This document shows, in pieces, positions 8,765 through 34,885 of a DNA stretch of 64,000 nt (within the stretch, counting starts at the first letter, position 1; every line of letters begins with the position of its first letter). This DNA is from a virus. Taxonomy: Duplodnaviria; Caudoviricetes. Where the stretch lies: IMG/VR virus record IMGVR_UViG_3300026442_000101; one strand, written 5' to 3'. The position numbers and the translations under genes were made by a program. The notes beneath the pieces were generated by a model. The model made no database searches, had not been told where the DNA came from, and saw only the letters and a list, made by a program, of their open reading frames with translations.

Positions 8765-9664
8765 TTACATCTCAGCCAGACGATGGATAGCGTCTTCCAT
8801 CTCCATGTCGGGGTTCTCATCGAGAAGCTGGCGCATCTGATCCGTTACGGGAGTCTTGCTGATCGGAATCCGAATCACCTCACCGCCGGTGACGGTACGC
8901 TCGACAGGCGCAGTGAGTTGTTTGACTTCTTGCGGTGCGGAGGAGGTGTGCTCCGATTCCACTGCCTGTCGCCACTTGTTGCGGTTACGCTCCTTGAGAT
9001 CTTCGCAGCGTTTGGCGATGGACTCGTGATGTTCTTCCAGAGTCTTGTGCGTCTTCAGCTTGAAGCGGAACTTCTCCACTTCACGCGTCATGCACGGCTC
9101 GCAACGCCCGCACGCTGTAGCGCCCTTACGGGCATTGGTAGTCGGTAGTTCACAGACCCAGGTAGCAGCGTAGATCTCTGGTGGGAGATCGCGCATCATG
9201 GCGAACTTGGTAGTGTGTCGCAACGGGAACTTCAAGGGGACGACATCACCTTTCTTGGTGAAACGCCACATGGCATTCCACGCCTCGATCATCGAGTGCA
9301 TCTCTTGCAGCGTGTCATCGTCAGCGCAATAGCCGATGTTGACCGAGGTGTGGACATCGGGATCGACCATCTCGATTGCAGCTACCATCCAAGGTAGCGC
9401 TTGACGCCACTTGGCTTTAGGCGTCGCCGACAGATTGACCTTCGACAACACACGCCCGCCGCCATGCGGATACCAGCCTGGCCAATACTCTTTGATCAGG
9501 CTGATGATCTCCCCGCGGGAGTCCTCTTCGACGGAAGACTTATTGCGACCCTGGGCGCCGTCAGCGTAGATGTAGTCGACCTGAGTTCCTGCCTCTGCCA
9601 TTTCCCACATGAGGTAAGTGGAGTCCATCCCACCAGAGAAGAGGACGAGTGCACGCTTAGCCAT
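8765..9664 (-). CDS. QueC-like PP-loop ATPase (7-cyano-7-deazaguanine synthase family)
   Basis: LVLFSGGMDS PP-loop; C..CGRCEPC Zn motif. Confidence 0.75.
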   Translation of the reverse strand: MAKRALVLFSGGMDSTYLMWEMAEAGTQVDYIYADGAQGRNKSSVEEDSRGEIISLIKEYWPGWYPHGGGRVLSKVNLSATPKAKWRQALPWMVAAIEMVDPDVHTSVNIGYCADDDTLQEMHSMIEAWNAMWRFTKKGDVVPLKFPLRHTTKFAMMRDLPPEIYAATWVCELPTTNARKGATACGRCEPCMTREVEKFRFKLKTHKTLEEHHESIAKRCEDLKERNRNKWRQAVESEHTSSAPQEVKQLTAPVERTVTGGEVIRIPISKTPVTDQMRQLLDENPDMEMEDAIHRLAEM

Positions 9665-27871: not shown

Positions 27872-28714
27872 TTACACGAGTTCGACGATATCGAGATGAT
27901 CGATGCGGTTACGCTTGAAGCTTGCCGCGTTAGTGTGACCGCCGCCGCCGTGTTGTTCGGCAATGGTGGCGACGTTAACGTCAGAGCTCTTGAGCGAACG
28001 CAGACGGTAGTAACGGAACTTGGCGTCTTCGTACCAAGTGATCGAGAACGGCGAGTTGTACTTCTTGATCAACTCTTCACCGACGCGGCTGCCGTTGTAG
28101 CGCGGCACGTTCGACATCGGAATGTTCTCATAGCCAGCGAAGCTGACCAGGAAGCTTTCTTCCAGATGTCGGCCGATCTGCTGATCTTCCATCGCCACCA
28201 GCGGCTGCCCTACATCAATCAGATGTTCGGTATACGCATGAGCGTAAGTCACCGAATCGATTTCGATAGGCAAGGTGGCAAAGCCTGCGATGAAAGCTCG
28301 GGTATCAGGCAGCTTGTAGTTCCACAGGTCGTGGTCTTCCACAAGGTCGACAATCGTCGGCCGCGGCTGATTGGGGAAGATGATGTCCCACGCCAGACCT
28401 GCACCAGACCGGGTCATGTCAAGACGCAGGTCGAGGTTGTTCGGATAGCCCGCCTTCTCGAAGTATTCGTCGATACGTTCGATGGCCGTCTCGTGATGAT
28501 CGAGCACAGTGACCATCTTCGCCTTATCGCACATCTCAGCGAGGACGTTCGGCGGATAGGAGAAGTCGAGGATGATGACCGTACGGTCGGTAACGTCGGG
28601 TGGGTTATCACCATAAGCTGCGGCGATGTAGTCGGCATCATCACCGTACTTGTTGCGAGCTGCCCATGCGGCAACGACGCCGTCGAAACAGTCAGCGTGG
28701 TAGATTACAAGCAT
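27872..28714 (-). CDS. DHH/DHHA1 phosphoesterase
   Basis: HADCFDG, ILDFS, LDHH, GGGGHTNAASF. Confidence 0.9.
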   Translation of the reverse strand: MLVIYHADCFDGVVAAWAARNKYGDDADYIAAAYGDNPPDVTDRTVIILDFSYPPNVLAEMCDKAKMVTVLDHHETAIERIDEYFEKAGYPNNLDLRLDMTRSGAGLAWDIIFPNQPRPTIVDLVEDHDLWNYKLPDTRAFIAGFATLPIEIDSVTYAHAYTEHLIDVGQPLVAMEDQQIGRHLEESFLVSFAGYENIPMSNVPRYNGSRVGEELIKKYNSPFSITWYEDAKFRYYRLRSLKSSDVNVATIAEQHGGGGHTNAASFKRNRIDHLDIVELV

Positions 28715-30405: not shown

Positions 30406-30933
30406 TCAGTTGACCCGAAGGATCACTTGATCACGACCACCGCGTTGAGCCAGCCATTCGTAGAACTGCGTATACTTCATATTGCAGAAGAAGTAACTGG
30501 CATCGTCGACGATGATGAGCTTTGCTGGGGGAATAGGATCGGGCAGACCTTTCTTCCGATGCAGGATCGAGCGCTTTACTTCGTATGGCGTACACACACG
30601 AACGCTTTCTAATTCTGCACGGGGATACCCGATGAAATCAGGGTTCTCGTTCGCACAGTTCTGGATCAGCATCTTCTTGATCCTGAGGTTCGGTACGATG
30701 TAGAGCGCCTCACCTACCAGGTTGAAGATCTGAGCCAAAGCTCTGGTACGGCCGGTCTGACGTGGGACGAAGAACCCCACAGTCTTCCAGTCACGCAACC
30801 AGATGTCGTCTGGAGGAGCTGCCCTTCTGTACTGTTCCTCGAACCACTCCTGTTCGGCGTGGAATGGCGCCAGCAGGCTCTGTACCATCTCCTTCGGATT
30901 GAAGGGAGGTTGTGAGACCGTTTTCTTACTCAT
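30406..30933 (-). CDS. small P-loop NTPase-like protein
   Basis: PRQTGRT Walker A-like and IIVDDA Walker B-like. Confidence 0.6.
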   Translation of the reverse strand: MSKKTVSQPPFNPKEMVQSLLAPFHAEQEWFEEQYRRAAPPDDIWLRDWKTVGFFVPRQTGRTRALAQIFNLVGEALYIVPNLRIKKMLIQNCANENPDFIGYPRAELESVRVCTPYEVKRSILHRKKGLPDPIPPAKLIIVDDASYFFCNMKYTQFYEWLAQRGGRDQVILRVN

Positions 30934-31349
30934 CTTGTAATCTCGCCTTTATATTCAAACGGTAAGTTCGCCTTCTCAGCGATCTTCCGTAAAACGTTTA
31001 TGCTTAAGTGTCGGTGACAGAACTTACCGGGACTACAATAGCACGCAATGGCCACCTCACTGTCTCGTCCCAATTCGAGCAGATCGTAGAAAGACCGACG
31101 CCAACTACCGTACCGATCGCGTAATAGCGCTAGGTATTGTTCGGTATACATCTCGTCGGTTATGAGCTCGCCCTTGTGGTTCATGACCATCGTCCAAGTG
31201 GGTGCGAGAAACTCGTACTCCACAGCTGACTTTACCGTGGTATCGGCCAGGATGATTCCCCTATCCTGCACCAGTCTCCACTGGCTAATCTGCGCTGTCC
31301 AAAAGGCCATGCTAAGCTCCGGTATTCTCTGACATACATTTGCCAGCAT
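30930..31349 (-). CDS. DUF488-like protein
   Basis: ACYCSPGKFCHRHL motif. Confidence 0.6.
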   Translation of the reverse strand: MLANVCQRIPELSMAFWTAQISQWRLVQDRGIILADTTVKSAVEYEFLAPTWTMVMNHKGELITDEMYTEQYLALLRDRYGSWRRSFYDLLELGRDSEVAIACYCSPGKFCHRHLSINVLRKIAEKANLPFEYKGEITR

Positions 31350-31364
31350 AAATGAAAGTTTACG

Positions 31365-31396
31365 GCATAAAGCCGGGATCTATCCCGGCAGTATGT
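31365..31396 (-). terminator. hairpin terminator closing the RNA locus
   Basis: GCCGGGA-TCTA-TCCCGGC with CATA/TATG flanks. Confidence 0.7.
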
Positions 31397-31397
31397 T

Positions 31398-31530
31398 TAG
31401 GCCCCGAGCGGGAGATTTGAACTCCCCACCAACTAATAAACGACGGACACGGGAAAGTGCGTCAGGCATGAAACCCTTTCCAGTATATCGTATCGCAGTT
31501 CGCCGGAGTAGCGCCAGCCGCTAGCCAGGG
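31398..31530 (-). ncRNA. tRNA-scaffold RNA NC1 (133 nt): acceptor, D-like hairpin, long insert, T arm, G-CCTA end
   Basis: Acceptor CCCTGGC/GCTCGGG; T arm GGGAG-TTCAAAT-CTCCC. Confidence 0.55.
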
Positions 31531-31537
31531 ATGATCG

Positions 31538-31726
31538 TTACAGGAACTTGGGCTTTTCCTTAGTCAGGCAAGCCGCCGGGAAGCCGGTAGCGCGAACTTC
31601 ACCATCGGCCATCCAACGAACCACCGTGTGCTCGTCTTCCTCATCATAACGCTCGACGGTCAGTTCCGGAGAACCGCTTTTGAGGTAGACGACATCACCT
31701 GGTTCGAACTTGGTAGCTTCGCTCAT
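31538..31726 (-). CDS. YodC/DUF2158-family protein
   Basis: FEPGDVVYLKSGSPELTV...VRW...FPAACL. Confidence 0.75.
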   Translation of the reverse strand: MSEATKFEPGDVVYLKSGSPELTVERYDEEDEHTVVRWMADGEVRATGFPAACLTKEKPKFL

Positions 31727-31744
31727 GCCGGTATCCTGTATTGT

Positions 31745-31948
31745 TTAGAAATCGGAGAAGGTGCGCATGAAGATGGACTCAGCAATGGTCCAGATCTTCC
31801 CTGCCGGTGCATCATGGGTAGGCTCCACATTTGTGTAGACCACCATCGGCCAAGAGCAATCTTGCCCATGTTGCGCCTTATACAGGACTTTGAATCGCAG
31901 TCCGCTAGGAGACTTGTAATCCACTCCTTCTTCATACGACTCAAGCAT
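31745..31948 (-). CDS. DUF1653-like protein
   Basis: FKVLYKAQH...MVVY...IWT...F pattern. Confidence 0.6.
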   Translation of the reverse strand: MLESYEEGVDYKSPSGLRFKVLYKAQHGQDCSWPMVVYTNVEPTHDAPAGKIWTIAESIFMRTFSDF

Positions 31949-31963
31949 TGCACTCTCTCCTAA

Positions 31964-32115
31964 TAGGTCTCCAACATACCCAGTGTATCGCCTATTGTAT
32001 TGTTGAGCGGTCGCAGTTAGGATTTCGGGTCGTACCTAAATTTTCCCCATTGCTGGGCGATGTCCTGATGTAGCGTTTTGGACGATTGCGACACTTTAGC
32101 GATACCACGTTGGAA
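31964..32115 (-). ncRNA. structured RNA NC7 (152 nt) closed by an acceptor-like stem, ending A-CCTA
   Basis: TTCCAACGT/ATGTTGGAG, GTATCGC/GCGATAC, GTCGCA/TGCGAC, CCCA-GCAA-TGGG, TTAGG/CCTAA. Confidence 0.55.
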
Positions 32116-32117
32116 AA

Positions 32118-32245
32118 TAGGTCTCCACCCGTGTTTTCGAGACACGGACCTCACTCATGTACCTGATCCACGCCGAACCCCGAAGGGATGGGCATGTTCG
32201 GAATCGAACCGAAAGAGTGCGCTCTACCATCTGAGCTAGGCGGAG
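32118..32245 (-). ncRNA. tRNA-scaffold RNA NC2 (128 nt) with permuted mini-tRNA in the anticodon arm
   Basis: Acceptor CTCCGCC/GGTGGAG, D arm, stem CACTC/GAGTG around 58-nt insert holding a second T arm. Confidence 0.7.
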
Positions 32246-32252
32246 ATAAAAC

Positions 32253-32978
32253 TTACGCGCAGCGGTAGTTCGGGTTCTCGAGAACAACCTCGAGGTCGAA
32301 GAACAGCTCGGTCTTGATGCTGGACGGCACGGTGATGGAAAGCAAGGCGCGCTCAGGATCTACCTTCAGGTAGATGTCTTCAGCACCAGGGATGCTGAGG
32401 GTGTAGTTCTGAGTACGCTGACCTTCGATCTGCTTGATAGCAGAGAGGTCATGGGACAGCTTGATACCATCGGCCGTGCGGACGTTGTTGAAGCGGATAG
32501 CGCCGACGCTGTCGGTCAGATCCAACACGCTGGGATCGCCGAAGCCGAACACGTTGAACTTACCATCGACCAACGGCAGGTTCTTGGCTTCGAGGCGACG
32601 CTCGGTAGCGCGGCCAATGCGACGACGCAGGACAGTGGAGTACTTGTCCATGAACGCGCCTTGCTGCATCATCATGTCTACATCGAGATCGGAAAGACCT
32701 TCAGGCTTGGCGCCCTGACCCACGTTGTAGAGGAACGAGCACAGACCTTTGTGACGCGCGGTCAGTTGCGCTTGCTCGATAATCATGCGCTGGACATGCG
32801 CCGGGCGGCTGTCGATGTGACCGAGCGGCAAGTGATCTTTCAGGAACTGCTCTTCCGATTGCCAGGTTACGTTGCCGGCTTCGTCTTTGACGTTGTAGCC
32901 AGGCTTACCATCTTCGCCGGATTGAGACGACCAGGCGAGGACAGTAACGTTCTTGTTCACCAGATAGTTCTGAGTCAT
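32253..32978 (-). CDS. multidomain hypothetical protein with crAss001_48-like helical hairpin
   Basis: QRMIIEQAQLTARHKGLCSFL...QQGAFMDKYSTVLRRRI pattern. Confidence 0.7.
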   Translation of the reverse strand: MTQNYLVNKNVTVLAWSSQSGEDGKPGYNVKDEAGNVTWQSEEQFLKDHLPLGHIDSRPAHVQRMIIEQAQLTARHKGLCSFLYNVGQGAKPEGLSDLDVDMMMQQGAFMDKYSTVLRRRIGRATERRLEAKNLPLVDGKFNVFGFGDPSVLDLTDSVGAIRFNNVRTADGIKLSHDLSAIKQIEGQRTQNYTLSIPGAEDIYLKVDPERALLSITVPSSIKTELFFDLEVVLENPNYRCA

Positions 32979-33006
32979 GAAAGATCTCTGCGGGTGGTTG
33001 GATGAA

Positions 33007-33095
33007 TAGGGCGTTCCTCGTGGATTTGAACCACGGACCTTCGGCGTGTCTTTTAGCTAAGGGGCCGACGCTCTAACCAGCTGAGCTAAGGAACG
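33007..33095 (-). ncRNA. tRNA-scaffold RNA NC3 (89 nt) with 18-nt anticodon loop
   Basis: All four tRNA stems perfect; loop CCCTTAGCTAAAAGACAC; ends C-CCTA. Confidence 0.75.
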
Positions 33096-33099
33096 AGAA

Positions 33100-33213
33100 T
33101 AGGGGCTTCCTCGAAGAATCGAACTTCGGACTTCCGCCAGGTATGGTGAGCCTGCCCCATTTAAGGGGCCAGGAGGCTCGAAGACGGCACTCTACCAACT
33201 GAGTTAAGGAAGC
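33100..33213 (-). ncRNA. tRNA-scaffold RNA NC4 (114 nt) with 44-nt hairpin insert replacing the anticodon loop
   Basis: GCTTCCT/AGGAAGC, CCGTC/GGCGG, CGAAG-TTCGATT-CTTCG; ends C-CCTA. Confidence 0.75.
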
Positions 33214-33220
33214 ATGTAGC

Positions 33221-33496
33221 TTAAAGCAAACCTTCCGAGATCATGAACTGTTCGAGGTCATCAAAGAAACCATCGTACAGGATTTCGGTACCGGCAAAAC
33301 CTTTCCAGCGCCACCACTTAGGTTCTTTACCCATAGCGGTGATGCTTTCTTCGGTTTGCTTTCTGAAGAAATTACCGACCTTATCGAACGCAACGAGGTC
33401 GGTGGTGTAGAGATCCCCGTGGACGTGCAGCAGCCTGATTATCTTGGCTTCCAGTTCTGGACTAACCTCGAGTTCTTTCAGTTGCTTATTGCGCAT
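33221..33496 (-). CDS. hypothetical protein, 91 aa (start reassigned to MRNK)
   Basis: The longer start overlaps the NC5 RNA. Confidence 0.7.
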   Translation of the reverse strand: MRNKQLKELEVSPELEAKIIRLLHVHGDLYTTDLVAFDKVGNFFRKQTEESITAMGKEPKWWRWKGFAGTEILYDGFFDDLEQFMISEGLL

Positions 33497-33512
33497 CACA
33501 AGTTTCTCTGAA

Positions 33513-33664
33513 TAGGGAGCACTGACTGGAATTGAACCAGTGACCTTCGTCAAGTTGGCCTTACGCTCTAACCAACTGAGCTAATCACCCATACGGGCGA
33601 TGCCGGACTCGAACCGGCGACCTTAAGGGAGGGACGACGCTCTACCAAACTGAGCTACAGTGCT
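33513..33664 (-). ncRNA. nested double tRNA NC5 (152 nt): outer tRNA containing a complete circularly permuted tRNA
   Basis: Outer AGCACTG/CAGTGCT and TCGTC/GACGA; inner GGGTGAT/ATCGCCC and TAAGG/CCTTA; two D arms, two T arms; ends C-CCTA. Confidence 0.85.
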
Positions 33665-33670
33665 ATTGAA

Positions 33671-33821
33671 TAGGTAACTCTAGCAGGGAATCGAACCCGC
33701 TGCCTTCCTCATGTTTGCGTCTACCAATTCCGCCATTGGCCGATAGTGCCGGCCAAGCAGGACTCGAACCTGCAATCCTTTTCAGGAAGGTGAGGACGCT
33801 CTACCAATGAGCTACAGAGTT
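33671..33821 (-). ncRNA. nested double tRNA NC6 (151 nt): outer tRNA containing a permuted Leu-type tRNA lacking its anticodon arm
   Basis: Outer AACTCTG/TAGAGTT and TCCTC/GAGGA; inner CGGCCAA/TTGGCCG, D arm TGGCGGAATTGGTAGACGC; ends A-CCTA. Confidence 0.8.
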
Positions 33822-33823
33822 AG

Positions 33824-34122
33824 AATAAGCGCCTGGGGAGGACATTCCCCAGGTCTTGCCACTAATTACCCTAGTGGCCAAGGTGCCTTCATATCGCTTC
33901 AGGCAGGTTTGCGCGGTACTAGCTAGTGTCTGACCATGCTAGAACAGTGCTCGGCATGTGCGGCGCTGGCGCTTCCCTGATAACTCAAAGCCAACAGACT
34001 GGCTCCTCGTCGTCGTAGGGTCTAATGTAACTACAAAGCCTTACGTGCAGCTATAGCGCCTCGGGTAGGGAGGGCACGGGGCTAGGATCTTAGGCTTGGC
34101 ATAGGAGTACCGAGCTTCTGAT
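33824..34122 (-). ncRNA. candidate ~300-nt structured ncRNA
   Basis: No credible ORF; hairpins GCCACTAG/TTAGTGGC, CCTGGGG/CCCCAGG; flanked by tRNA-Gln and NC6. Confidence 0.4.
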
Positions 34123-34123
34123 T

Positions 34124-34201
34124 TGGCAGGGGTAATTGGATTCGAACCAATGATCGCGGCGTCAAAGGCCGCTGCTTTAGGCCAGGCTAAGCTATACCCC
34201 G
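34124..34201 (-). tRNA. trnQ: tRNA-Gln(UUG)
   Basis: GCGGC-CTTTGAC-GCCGC anticodon arm, TTCGAAT T loop, encoded CCA. Confidence 0.9.
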
Positions 34202-34209
34202 ATTGAAAA

Positions 34210-34285
34210 TGGCTCCACGACCTGGACTCGAACCAGGGACAGGCGAATTAACAGTCCGCTACTCTACCGACTGAGTTATCGTGGA
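34210..34285 (-). tRNA. trnN: tRNA-Asn(GUU)
   Basis: GCGGA-CTGTTAA-TTCGC, acceptor TCCACGA/TCGTGGA, CCA. Confidence 0.92.
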
Positions 34286-34361
34286 ACAAAGGGTGACCCT
34301 CCAGCCGATCTACGGCTAGTTAAGCGCGCTGCGTAATACGCTGCCTGGCAAGGGTCGTAAA

Positions 34362-34445
34362 TGGTGGATGGGGAAGGATTCGAACCTTCGAAAAATTAAT
34401 GGCGGCTTTACAGGCCGCTCCCTTTGACCTCTCGTGAACTCATCC
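34362..34445 (-). tRNA. trnY: tRNA-Tyr(GUA)
   Basis: GCGGC-CTGTAAA-GCCGC, long variable arm, CCA. Confidence 0.9.
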
Positions 34446-34454
34446 AGATGCAAG

Positions 34455-34530
34455 TGGTAGTACCGAGTGGGATGGAACCACCGACCTTATCCTTATCAGG
34501 GGTGCGCTCTACCAGCTGAGCTACGGCACT
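34455..34530 (-). tRNA. trnI: tRNA-Ile(GAU), possibly degenerate
   Basis: CTGATAA loop, CCA; anticodon stem CACCC/GGATA has 2 mismatches and T loop is TTCCATC. Confidence 0.7.
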
Positions 34531-34576
34531 ATCTTTCTTACATCTTATCTACACGTTCCGTAAAAATGTACGGAAA

Positions 34577-34885
34577 TCAATGAGATCCCTTCGAGCAACT
34601 CCGGCAACCTTTACAGCCAGGACGAGGAGTACCGGCCTTGATGTTGATGTCGGTCTTCCAGGTATGCGTTGCCCGCTCTACAGGAGATGCGGTGATAGCG
34701 ATCTTCACCTCGACATCTTCAGGATCCAGACCGAGCAGCACCCAGATGATCTCATGAACCTTAGGCTGCATGAGCTCGGTAAGTTCGGCCAGACCTACCT
34801 CAGTGAACGGAAGGTTATTCTCTGCGGCCACGTCTTTGATGACGTTCTCGATACGTTGACGGAAGTCCATGGTTTCTCGGGTCAT
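34577..34885 (-). CDS. hypothetical protein
   Basis: 102 aa, C-terminal CxxCxxC. Confidence 0.7.
   Translation of the reverse strand: MTRETMDFRQRIENVIKDVAAENNLPFTEVGLAELTELMQPKVHEIIWVLLGLDPEDVEVKIAITASPVERATHTWKTDINIKAGTPRPGCKGCRSCSKGSH

What the first reader, a model, noticed from the sequence alone, without database searches (positions are those of the whole stretch)
31398..33821. Family of seven anticodon-less tRNA-scaffold RNAs sharing an N-CCTA 3' end
Seen: seven minus-strand elements (31398-31530, 31964-32115, 32118-32245, 33007-33095, 33100-33213, 33513-33664, 33671-33821) each close with a 7-bp acceptor-like stem, one discriminator base and CCTA (six continue CCTATT). The four tRNAs beside them all encode CCA. 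None of the seven has a 7-nt anticodon loop; the anticodon position instead holds inserts of different lengths. Stems have different sequences but stay paired, which suggests selection on structure rather than decay. They form tandem pairs separated by only 2-6 nt, like a tRNA operon. Inference: a phage system that uses the tRNA fold as a stable, host-processed chassis (RNase P/3' trimming) for non-translational RNAs. Possible roles are decoys for anti-phage tRNA nucleases, modulators of RelA or the CCA-adding enzyme, or carriers of cargo RNAs. I know of no description of such a family.
Basis: partly seen in the sequence, partly recalled or inferred. Interest (0 to 1): 0.93.

Follow-up and report, generated by a model that had tools for sequence, protein, structure and literature searches.

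The report
Anticodon-less tRNA-shaped RNAs in jumbo phage
Next to its real tRNA genes, a soil jumbo phage carries a conserved set of tRNA-shaped RNA genes that have no anticodon and a spoiled CCA end, and three of them have a second tRNA body nested in the first; related phages keep them by selection, their function is untested, and they most likely mimic tRNA.

Summary
All seven minus-strand elements sit at the stated coordinates. Each closes with an acceptor-like helix, one base and CCTA, while the four neighbouring tRNAs encode CCA.

Five elements (E3-E7) are real structured RNA genes. Five related phage genomes carry them, with 99-100% of cells paired and 12-13 compensatory pairs each in E6, E7 and E3 (0 of 500 shuffles reach this).

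E6, E7 and E3 are twin RNAs: a permuted tRNA-like module (T arm, closed acceptor hairpin, D arm or remnant) sits on the anticodon stem of an outer tRNA body. This module matches the tRNA-like domain of the bacterial Y RNA YrlA, but there is no Ro-binding stem and no Ro60 gene. E4 and E5 are tRNA bodies with a hairpin in place of the anticodon.

E1 is a separate, near-invariant RNA that ends CCA in relatives. E2 has no support.

CCUA is strict in this clade (33 of 34; all about 25 canonical tRNAs counted end CCA). Cultured relatives (Xanthomonas RTH11, Burkholderia FLC9, Ralstonia RP12) carry CCA, ACA or UCA instead.

Function is untested. tRNA mimicry as a decoy is my best inference, because the elements share an apparent operon with an anti-Thoeris Sequestin gene. 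This scan found nested tRNA-like phage RNAs before on other DNA (e1-133249). I found no published description.

The parts
33671..33821 (-). E7, a twin tRNA-shaped RNA (151 nt). Outer acceptor, D arm and T arm. One 5-bp anticodon stem (UCCUC/GAGGA) is shared with an inner permuted module made of a variable-arm hairpin, a T arm, a closed 7-bp acceptor hairpin and a Leu-type D arm. Ends A-CCUA.
   Evidence: 36 pairs, 100% of cells paired, 12 compensatory pairs, 0 of 500 shuffles.
33513..33664 (-). E6, a twin tRNA-shaped RNA (152 nt). The outer tRNA body carries, through a 4 x 7-nt internal loop, a second anticodon-type stem and an inner module (33559-33628) made of a T arm, a closed 7-bp acceptor hairpin and a D arm. 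Ends C-CCUA.
   Evidence: 42 pairs, 100% paired, 12 compensatory; inner part matches YrlA positions 23-85 at 37.7 bits; full-length homologue in phage RTH11 at 101.9 bits.
33100..33213 (-). E5, a tRNA body (114 nt) whose 5-bp anticodon stem encloses a 44-nt insert: a hairpin with loop UUAAAU followed by single-stranded ACCAUACCU. Ends C-CCUA.
   Evidence: Rfam tRNA 48 bits with a 41-nt insertion; 31 pairs, 6 compensatory; the ACCAUACC motif is shared with the RP12 element.
33007..33095 (-). E4, a tRNA body (89 nt) with an 18-nt 'anticodon' loop holding a 3-bp mini-hairpin whose loop keeps AGCU. Ends C-CCUA.
   Evidence: ARAGORN 'tRNA-???', Rfam 54.7 bits; 24 pairs, 4 compensatory, including the mini-hairpin (CUU/AAG, CGU/ACG).
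32118..32245 (-). E3, a reduced twin (128 nt). The outer tRNA body has an anticodon stem (CACUC/GAGUG) that encloses an inner T arm, a closed acceptor-like hairpin capped by CCC-UUCG-GGG, and a D-loop remnant. Ends A-CCUA. The outer T loop in this window is atypical (CUCGAAA).
   Evidence: 35 pairs, 99% paired, 13 compensatory.
31964..32115 (-). E2, a 152-nt insert present only in this window. It is closed by a 7-bp helix plus A-CCUA and flanked by the 12-nt direct repeat TGGAGACCTATT. It has no D or T arm. It is not confirmed as an RNA gene.
   Evidence: z = -1.69, 15 of 200 shuffles fold as well; absent from all relatives; no BLAST match.
31398..31530 (-). E1, a separate conserved RNA (133 nt) with a T arm and an imperfect acceptor-like closure. 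It is almost invariant in four relatives and ends G-CCA in all five; this window has one extra T (CCTA).
   Evidence: no BLAST match in cultured phages.
34124..34530 (-). Canonical phage tRNAs Ile(GAU), Tyr(GUA), Asn(GUU) and Gln(UUG). All encode CCA.
32253..32978 (-). ORF (241 aa) with a PF21825 Sequestin / crAss001_48 domain, lying between E4 and E3. This family holds anti-Thoeris 3'cADPR sponges.
   Evidence: bioRxiv 10.1101/2025.07.12.664507.
33221..33511 (-). Small ORF (96 aa, no family hit) between E6 and E5.
31372..31389 (-). Conserved GC hairpin followed by UUUAUGCC, just after E1. Probably the end of the transcription unit (inference).
   Evidence: the loop varies and the stem is kept in relatives..

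Best explanation
E3-E7 are genes for non-decoding tRNA mimics.

Likely pathway (inferred):
- They are transcribed with the phage tRNA operon.
- Their intact acceptor/T/D 'top half' lets host RNase P cut at the 5' end, as for the neighbouring tRNAs. U at -1 fits this.
- 3' processing leaves an end that reads CCU(A) instead of CCA, so the RNA cannot be charged as encoded.
- With no anticodon loop, it cannot decode.

Structure (shown):
- E6, E7 and E3 present two tRNA elbows on one molecule. A YrlA-type permuted module is mounted on, or shares, the anticodon stem.
- E4 and E5 present a small conserved hairpin where the anticodon would be.

Likely function (inferred): they occupy a protein that recognises the tRNA body without being consumed, acting as a sponge or decoy. 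The most likely targets are tRNA-directed host defence nucleases or toxins, given the apparent shared operon with replacement tRNAs and an anti-defence sponge gene.

My odds for the parts:
- Real structured RNA genes: about 0.9.
- RNase P-type excision: about 0.7.
- Decoy or sponge role: about 0.3.
For: Structure under selection:
- E6, E7 and E3 have 99-100% of cells paired.
- Each has 12-13 pairs with compensatory changes, reached by 0 of 500 shuffles. Slid controls give 25-52% paired.
- E4 and E5 have 4 and 6 compensatory pairs.
- Between the window and L123, the elements are 69-79% identical, against 59% for the adjacent protein gene.

tRNA likeness:
- Rfam tRNA scores E4 at 54.7 bits and E5 at 48 bits.
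- The inner module of E6 matches the YrlA tRNA-like domain at 37.7 bits.

Shared processing context:
- U at -1 in 39 of 40 elements, and in the tRNAs.

3' ends:
- About 25 of about 25 canonical tRNAs in six genomes end CCA.
- 33 of 34 non-canonical elements end CCU-A, and one ends CCC-A.
- The bases after CCUA vary.

Breadth:
- A full-length E6-type twin occurs in cultured Xanthomonas phage RTH11, with different sequences in every variable helix (101.9 bits).
- E7-, E5- and E3-like elements occur in Burkholderia phage FLC9.
- An E5-like element occurs in Ralstonia phage RP12.

Context:
- A Sequestin-domain ORF lies between the elements.
- Phage tRNAs are known to replace nuclease-hit host tRNAs (PMC10264068; bioRxiv 10.1101/2023.03.15.532788, titles and abstracts only).

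Precedent:
- M. smegmatis YrlA, with a 7-bp closed acceptor hairpin, is cut by RNase P and receives CCA (PMC4201824).
Against: - There is no evidence of discrete transcripts or mapped ends.
- The decoy role rests only on gene neighbourhood and on what the RNAs lack.
- CCUA is not conserved outside this clade. RTH11 has CCA, and FLC9 and RP12 have ACA or UCA. It may be a lineage habit of processing, not a functional mark.
- Exonuclease trimming to CC plus the host CCA-adding enzyme could restore CCA (established knowledge of RNase T and CCA enzyme; not tested here).
- Anticodon nucleases usually read the anticodon loop, which these RNAs lack, so they may bind such enzymes poorly.
- Only six genomes are available, and several are close relatives, so the counts are not independent.
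Confidence: 0.45

Rival explanations
1. The elements act as punctuation. They are cis-acting processing and stability signals. RNase P and RNase E cuts at the tRNA-shaped elements release the small ORF mRNAs that lie between them (96 aa, Sequestin, 67 aa, 62 aa), and the folded 3' ends protect those mRNAs. The excised RNAs have no role of their own.
For: - ORFs and elements alternate on one strand with very short gaps.
- The ribosome-binding site follows CCUAUU directly (CCUAUU-AGGAGAG-N7-AUG after E2; CCUAUU-GGAGAAAG in L001).
- No sigma-70-like promoter lies inside the array.
- A conserved hairpin follows only E1.
- T4 also has ORFs inside its tRNA cluster.
Against: - One tRNA would do for punctuation, yet the elements come in pairs. 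They also keep elaborate inner modules, internal loops and hairpin loops (AGCU in E4, UUAA in E5, ACCAUACC in E5 and RP12) that cutting would not require.
- E7 and E6 follow tRNAs and a non-coding stretch, not an ORF.
- RTH11 and FLC9 carry the elements inside runs of tRNAs without interleaved ORFs.
Confidence: 0.2
2. The elements are Y RNA-like. The twins are phage versions of YrlA that work with a host Ro60/Rsr ring and an exoribonuclease (PNPase) in RNA decay or repair.
For: - The inner module of E6 aligns to YrlA model positions 23-85 (37.7 bits, E = 5e-6).
- The RTH11 homologue scores 44.2 bits on positions 18-91.
- YrlA RNAs are reported in phages (PMC4201824).
Against: - Scores are well under the family cut-off of 69 bits.
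- The Ro-binding stem (model positions 1-22 and 86-114) is replaced by a complete tRNA body.
- No TROVE protein is found in the complete genomes of RTH11, FLC9 and SPFM4, or among the 30 ORFs scanned in this window.
- Tandem tRNAs also give weak YrlA hits.
Confidence: 0.1
3. The elements are debris from tRNA gene duplication and recombination: pseudogenes with insertions, kept only because they are young.
For: - The slot after E3 is hypervariable. It holds E2 in the window, a different element in L122, and nothing in others.
- E2 is flanked by a 12-nt direct repeat.
- E3's outer T loop is degenerate in this window.
- E8 and tRNA-His are missing here.
- Twin layouts can arise from a tandem tRNA duplicate whose halves pair crosswise (inference).
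Against: - Helices stay 99-100% paired through many double substitutions, in genomes whose flanking protein is only 51-76% identical.
- Homologues exist in phages of other host genera.
- The CCUA end is kept while adjacent bases vary.
Confidence: 0.05
4. The elements are interrupted or split tRNA genes. The inserts are removed, or the halves rejoined, to give normal decoding tRNAs.
For: - E4 scores as a tRNA (54.7 bits).
- E6 is exactly two tRNA lengths.
- Permuted tRNA genes exist in some algae and archaea (own knowledge).
Against: - Removing the hairpins does not leave a 7-nt loop with U33 in any element or relative.
- E6 has only 4 + 7 unpaired bases for two would-be anticodon loops, and E7 has one shared stem and none.
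- The inserts are too short for group I introns.
- No bacterial enzyme is known to splice such inserts (own knowledge).
Confidence: 0.03

Closest known systems
YrlA, bacterial Y RNA-like RNA (Rfam RF02553; Chen et al. 2014, PMC4201824)
   Same: - Both have a permuted tRNA-like module: a stem, a T arm, a closed acceptor-type hairpin, U8-A9 and a D arm, then back to the stem.
- The order and conserved bases are the same in the inner part of E6.
- The hairpin is 7 bp, as in M. smegmatis YrlA, which RNase P cuts.
   Different: - In YrlA the module sits on a Ro60-binding stem and the gene lies beside rsr.
- Here the module sits on, or shares, the anticodon stem of a second complete tRNA body with a free acceptor end.
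- No Ro60 gene was found.
- Scores are below the family cut-off.
Phage T4 stable RNAs C and D (species 1 and 2)
   Same: - They are small RNAs of unknown function encoded at the end of a phage tRNA cluster and annotated as stable RNAs.
- rnaC has a T arm and paired ends, like E1.
   Different: - There is no sequence similarity, no D arm, no twin architecture and no CCU end.
- rnaD shows no tRNA feature.
tmRNA tRNA-like domain
   Same: It is a tRNA mimic with an acceptor and T arm and no anticodon.
   Different: - tmRNA is charged with alanine (G3:U70, CCA end) and carries a tag reading frame.
- The elements have no G3:U70 and end CCU.
- ARAGORN finds no tmRNA.
Engineered tRNA scaffolds for RNA expression (Ponchon and Dardel; own knowledge) and the eukaryotic mascRNA
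   Same: In both, the tRNA body serves as a stable chassis that the cell processes, with foreign RNA placed at the anticodon stem. E4 and E5 have exactly this layout.
   Different: The scaffolds are artificial and mascRNA is eukaryotic. Neither has a nested second tRNA body.
Circularly permuted and split tRNA genes (red alga Cyanidioschyzon, some archaea; own knowledge)
   Same: The inner module has the 3' half before the 5' half.
   Different: Those genes mature into normal decoding tRNAs through a splicing endonuclease. Here no anticodon loop can be formed.
Nested double tRNA-like RNA of an N4-like phage
   Same: It describes one anticodon-less tRNA top half nested in another, in a phage, with YrlA as the closest known relative.
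   Different: That RNA is 112 nt and comes from other phage groups. I did not examine that locus.

Membership tests
tRNA (RF00005) | Cloverleaf with acceptor, D and T arms | tested here: met
   E4 scores 54.7 bits and E5 48 bits, both over the 29-bit cut-off. E3, E6 and E7 have outer acceptor, D and T arms.
tRNA (RF00005) | 7-nt anticodon loop with U33 and a readable anticodon | tested here: not met
   ARAGORN reports only E4, as 'tRNA-???' with a 2-nt anticodon. The loops are replaced by 18-81-nt inserts.
tRNA (RF00005) | CCA 3' end, encoded or added | tested here: inconclusive
   The genes encode CCU-A, not CCA. The mature end is unknown.
YrlA / Y RNA-like (RF02553) | tRNA-like domain (T arm, acceptor-type hairpin, D arm) | tested here: met
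   E6 inner module matches model positions 23-85 at 37.7 bits. RTH11 matches positions 18-91 at 44.2 bits.
YrlA / Y RNA-like (RF02553) | Ro60/Rsr-binding stem formed by the 5' and 3' ends; score over the family cut-off | tested here: not met
   Nothing aligns to model positions 1-22 or 86-114. The best score of 37.7 bits is below the 69-bit cut-off.
YrlA / Y RNA-like (RF02553) | Gene next to a TROVE (Ro60) protein gene | tested here: not met
   No PF05731 match in the complete genomes of RTH11, FLC9 and SPFM4. None among 30 window ORFs scanned with Pfam. The window's own whole genome is not held.
tmRNA | Alanine identity (G3:U70), CCA end and tag reading frame | tested here: not met
   ARAGORN finds no tmRNA. 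Position 3:70 is C-G or U-A in all elements.
T4-type stable RNAs of tRNA clusters (rnaC, rnaD) | Discrete stable RNA processed from the tRNA transcript | not testable with these tools
   Only contigs of RNA libraries were available.
T4-type stable RNAs of tRNA clusters (rnaC, rnaD) | Sequence or structure homology to rnaC or rnaD | tested here: not met
   rnaC shares only a T arm and paired ends, and rnaD shares nothing.

The most novel reading that the evidence does not exclude
Jumbo phages make a class of non-chargeable, anticodon-less 'Siamese-twin' tRNAs: two tRNA bodies joined at the anticodon stem. These serve as RNA sponges against tRNA-directed bacterial immunity or toxins. A deliberately spoiled CCA end (CCU here; ACA or UCA elsewhere) would keep them out of translation. 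This would be an RNA-based counter-defence encoded beside protein sponges.
Probability: 0.25. Interest if true: 0.85.

Novelty: new variant of a known kind. Interest (0 to 1): 0.7.

Why it matters
- Phage tRNA clusters are usually annotated by tRNA finders that skip these genes. In RTH11, FLC9 and RP12 the elements are unannotated, and in SPFM4 one lies under a spurious CDS.
- A conserved family of tRNA look-alikes that can neither decode nor, as encoded, be charged points to a use of the tRNA shape outside translation during infection.
- If they are decoys, they would add an RNA arm to phage counter-defence.
- They would also give a natural, selected design for tRNA-scaffold RNAs with two elbows.
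- The question is testable, because the E6-type twin exists in a cultured Xanthomonas phage.
- It may also shed light on the 50-year-old puzzle of T4's stable RNAs, and on what the tRNA-like domain of Y RNAs is for.

Tried and rejected
- **Transcription evidence.** 22 soil 'metatranscriptome' runs hold the stretch. Laid as contigs, they are 30-40 kb pieces at flat depth with no joints inside the elements. This shows neither transcription nor RNA ends.
- **IMG/VR scan for a T arm plus CCTATT.** This returned mostly ordinary tRNAs or chance hits and is of no use as a family search.
- **E1-core 18-mer scans of viral and metagenome contigs.** These returned only the known relatives and chance hits.
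- **BLAST of E1 and of E2+E3 against cultured phages.** No match.
- **Covariance model R1.** It also scores plain tRNAs at 39-51 bits and tandem tRNAs at 55-59 bits (PA1C; FLC9 128140-128307). I inspected these and rejected them.
- **Intron or splicing reading.** Removing the inserts never restores a 7-nt loop.
- **Anti-Shine-Dalgarno mimicry by CCUCC-like runs in the inserts.** The runs are not conserved in relatives.
- **Ro60 partner.** No TROVE gene was found.
- **Pairing of E5's 3' strand with E4's 5' strand.** Not kept in relatives.
- **Literature.** Eight full-text searches found no description of this family.
Full report
**Where this is**

The window looks like part of a jumbo phage.
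- Its NAMPT-like protein is closest to those of Pseudomonas phages Phabio and Viktualia and Ralstonia phage RP12.
- The Sequestin-like protein of the region occurs on a contig of 248 kb.
- No whole genome is held.

Almost everything near the finding is on the minus strand. Reading that strand, the order is:
- tRNA-Ile, Tyr, Asn and Gln (34530-34124);
- a 267-nt conserved non-coding stretch;
- E7 and E6;
- a 96-aa ORF;
- E5 and E4;
- a 241-aa ORF with a Sequestin domain;
- E3 and E2;
- two small ORFs;
- E1, followed by a conserved hairpin.

**The observation**

Each of the seven elements closes with an acceptor-like helix, one base and CCTA. Six continue CCTATT. The four tRNAs encode CCA. ARAGORN calls only E4, as a tRNA with an impossible 2-nt anticodon. 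Rfam's tRNA model accepts E4 (54.7 bits) and E5 (48 bits) by treating the anticodon region as an insertion. Four separate runs carry the stretch. The differences between them fall in the tRNA genes (34430-34474), and the one figure printed over the seven elements, for DNA run X1 over 31300-34239, is 0 other letters. The odd ends are therefore not assembly errors.

**Relatives**

The Sequestin-like ORF led to five other distinct genomes:
- two in IMG/VR (L001 and L003);
- three through exact-protein look-ups (L122, L123 and L124).

Protein identity to the window ranges from 51% to 76%. All five carry the same array.
- E7, E6 and E3 are present in all six genomes.
- E5 is in five genomes and E4 in five.
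- An eighth element (E8) and tRNA-His and tRNA-Asp occur in relatives but not in the window.
- E2 is found only in the window.

**Structure**

For E6 I wrote the nested structure by hand and counted pairs.
- There are 42 pairs, and 252 of 252 cells are paired.
- 12 pairs have changes on both sides.
- No shuffle out of 500 reaches this, and slid partners give 25-38% pairing.

E7 has 36 pairs, 100% paired, 12 compensatory. E3 has 35 pairs, 99% paired, 13 compensatory. E4 and E5 have 4 and 6 compensatory pairs. In E4 these include the small hairpin inside the loop, which reads CUU/AAG, CGU/ACG or UUUU/AAAA.

The helices that vary are the acceptor, anticodon-type, inner-acceptor and outer T stems. 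The D arms, the inner T arms and several unpaired runs do not vary.

*E6.* The order is: outer acceptor 5' strand, D arm, outer anticodon-stem 5' strand, 4 unpaired bases, then an inner unit. The inner unit is a stem strand, a variable-region-like AGGUC, a T arm, a closed 7-bp hairpin, UA, a D arm and the other stem strand. After it come 7-8 unpaired bases, the outer stem 3' strand, the T arm, the acceptor 3' strand, and C-CCUA. Read as two tandem tRNAs, neither acceptor nor anticodon stem would pair.

*E7.* It has a single 5-bp stem that serves as anticodon stem for both bodies. Its inner D arm is of the leucine type (GCGGAAUUGGUAGACGC), preceded in permuted order by a variable-arm hairpin.

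*E3.* It keeps an inner T arm and a capped acceptor-like hairpin, but only a remnant of a D arm.

**Closest known**

A permissive Rfam scan matched the inner unit of E6 to the tRNA-like domain of YrlA, the bacterial Y RNA-like RNA. The match covers model positions 23-85 at 37.7 bits (E = 5e-6), under the cut-off of 69 bits. The topology is the same as described for YrlA: a T arm, an acceptor-type stem-loop and a D arm (PMC4201824).

The rest of YrlA, the Ro60-binding stem, is absent. It is replaced here by a whole tRNA body. No TROVE protein is encoded by three complete related phage genomes or by the 30 window ORFs I scanned. These RNAs therefore work like a YrlA tRNA mimic in shape, but they are not members of that family.

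T4's rnaC and rnaD sit in the same kind of place. rnaC has a T arm and paired ends, but there is no further likeness.

**Cultured carriers**

BLAST and a covariance model built from E6 (R1) found the following.
- A full-length twin in Xanthomonas phage RTH11 (75849-75999; 101.9 bits). All helices pair, with different sequences.
- E7-, E5- and E3-like elements in Burkholderia phage FLC9.
- An E5-like element in Ralstonia phage RP12 that shares the unpaired ACCAUACC run.

None of these is annotated. Salmonella phage SPFM4 has a tRNA-shaped RNA whose anticodon stem is capped by UUCG. An earlier follow-up of this scan reported a nested double tRNA-like RNA in an N4-like phage (e1-133249). I did not re-examine it.

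**The 3' end**

Within the six-genome clade the rule is strict.
- All about 25 canonical tRNAs counted end N-CCA.
- 33 of 34 non-canonical elements end N-CCU-A, and one ends N-CCC-A.
- The next two bases vary.

Outside the clade the rule fails. The RTH11 twins end CCA. The FLC9 elements end ACA, CCA and ACA. The RP12 element ends UCA. All of these are CCA or one change away from it.

I read this as a tendency of the non-decoding RNAs to carry a defective CCA, fixed as CCU in this clade. The mature end is unknown. Trimming to CC followed by A addition could restore CCA (established enzymology; not tested here). Both classes have U at -1, in 39 of 40 elements and in the tRNAs, which fits RNase P.

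**E1 and E2**

E1 is a different RNA of 132 nt.
- It is almost invariant in four relatives.
- It has a T arm and an imperfect closing helix, and no covariation to judge by.
- It ends CCA in all five relatives. The window's CCTA is a single inserted T.

E2 lacks support as an RNA gene.
- It has no D or T arm.
- It folds no better than 15 of 200 shuffles (z = -1.69).
- It has no homologue.
- It is bounded by a 12-nt direct repeat of E3's end, which points to an insertion at a hypervariable slot. L122 has a different tRNA-like insert at the same place.

**Function**

Nothing here tests function.
- The RNAs cannot decode.
- As encoded, they cannot be charged.
- They keep one or two tRNA elbows and a free acceptor end.
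- They appear to share a transcription unit with replacement tRNAs. Across the six genomes the tRNA set holds Tyr, Asn, Asp and His (GUN anticodons), the queuosine family.
- That unit also holds a gene with a Sequestin domain, a family shown to sponge the Thoeris signal 3'cADPR (bioRxiv 10.1101/2025.07.12.664507).

I therefore favour tRNA mimicry aimed at a tRNA-binding host factor, most plausibly a defence nuclease or toxin. The punctuation reading (mRNA release and protection) is the main rival. The Y-RNA, debris and split-tRNA readings are weaker, for the reasons given under rivals.

**Verdict**

- This is a new variant of a known kind: tRNA-mimic non-coding RNAs.
- I could not find the twin-on-a-tRNA architecture or the clade-wide CCU end in the literature searched.

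Noticed in passing
window 33823-34089 (-): A 267-nt ORF-free stretch between tRNA-Gln and E7. It has long invariant blocks in L001, L122 and L124 and is absent in L123. It ends in a conserved hairpin plus GGCGCUUAUUC. It has no Rfam match and little covariation so far.
   Followed up: partly
window 34124-34530 (-); L001:4492-5278; L123:63-600: Across the six genomes the phage tRNA set is Ile, Gln, Tyr, Asn, Asp and His. This includes all four queuosine-family (GUN anticodon) tRNAs, which are the targets of some anticodon nucleases (own knowledge). A QueC-like ORF lies at 8765-9664.
   Followed up: no
L001:5286-5420; L123:617-763: An eighth element (E8) occurs in relatives. It is a tRNA body with a 60-75-nt insert in the anticodon stem and ends CCUA. 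It lies after tRNA-His. Both E8 and tRNA-His are missing from the window.
   Followed up: partly
L122:2060-2170: At the slot where the window has E2, this relative has a different insert: a class II-like tRNA-shaped unit clamped by GGAGUC/GACUCC, without a CCUA end.
   Followed up: no
L133:2505-2578 (Salmonella phage SPFM4, LR535902): An unannotated tRNA-shaped RNA whose anticodon stem is closed by a UUCG tetraloop, followed by an odd tRNA-like unit. An annotated opposite-strand 'hypothetical protein' CDS (SPFM4_00252) overlaps them.
   Followed up: no
L010, L021, L032, L040, L050, L066, L085; L072:3920-4042; L091:851-1034: Unrelated IMG/VR contigs carry long tRNA-shaped RNAs that also end N-CCTATT. 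One is a 197-nt family, one is a 112-nt element, and one is a 173-nt element whose loop begins CUUUUAA and then holds an insert of about 110 nt. The scan was selected for CCTATT, so the shared tail means little.
   Followed up: partly
window 31372-31389: A GC hairpin right after E1, with a conserved stem and variable loop in all relatives, followed by UUUAUGCC. It is a likely terminator of the whole tRNA and tRNA-like unit.
   Followed up: partly
window 32136-32142 (-): The outer T loop of E3 reads CUCGAAA in the window but UUCGAUU or UUCAAUU in relatives. The window copy may have a weakened elbow.
   Followed up: no
window 31300-34600: Many small soil 'metatranscriptome' runs from 2018-2019 carry this phage as 30-40 kb contigs at depth 300-980. 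This looks like DNA carry-over or a bloom in one campaign.
   Followed up: partly
window 30930-31349 (-), 27872-28714 (-): Downstream genes include a DUF488-N3a protein and a weak DHH/DHHA1 phosphoesterase match. These are possible further nucleotide-signal or RNA-end enzymes in the neighbourhood.
   Followed up: no
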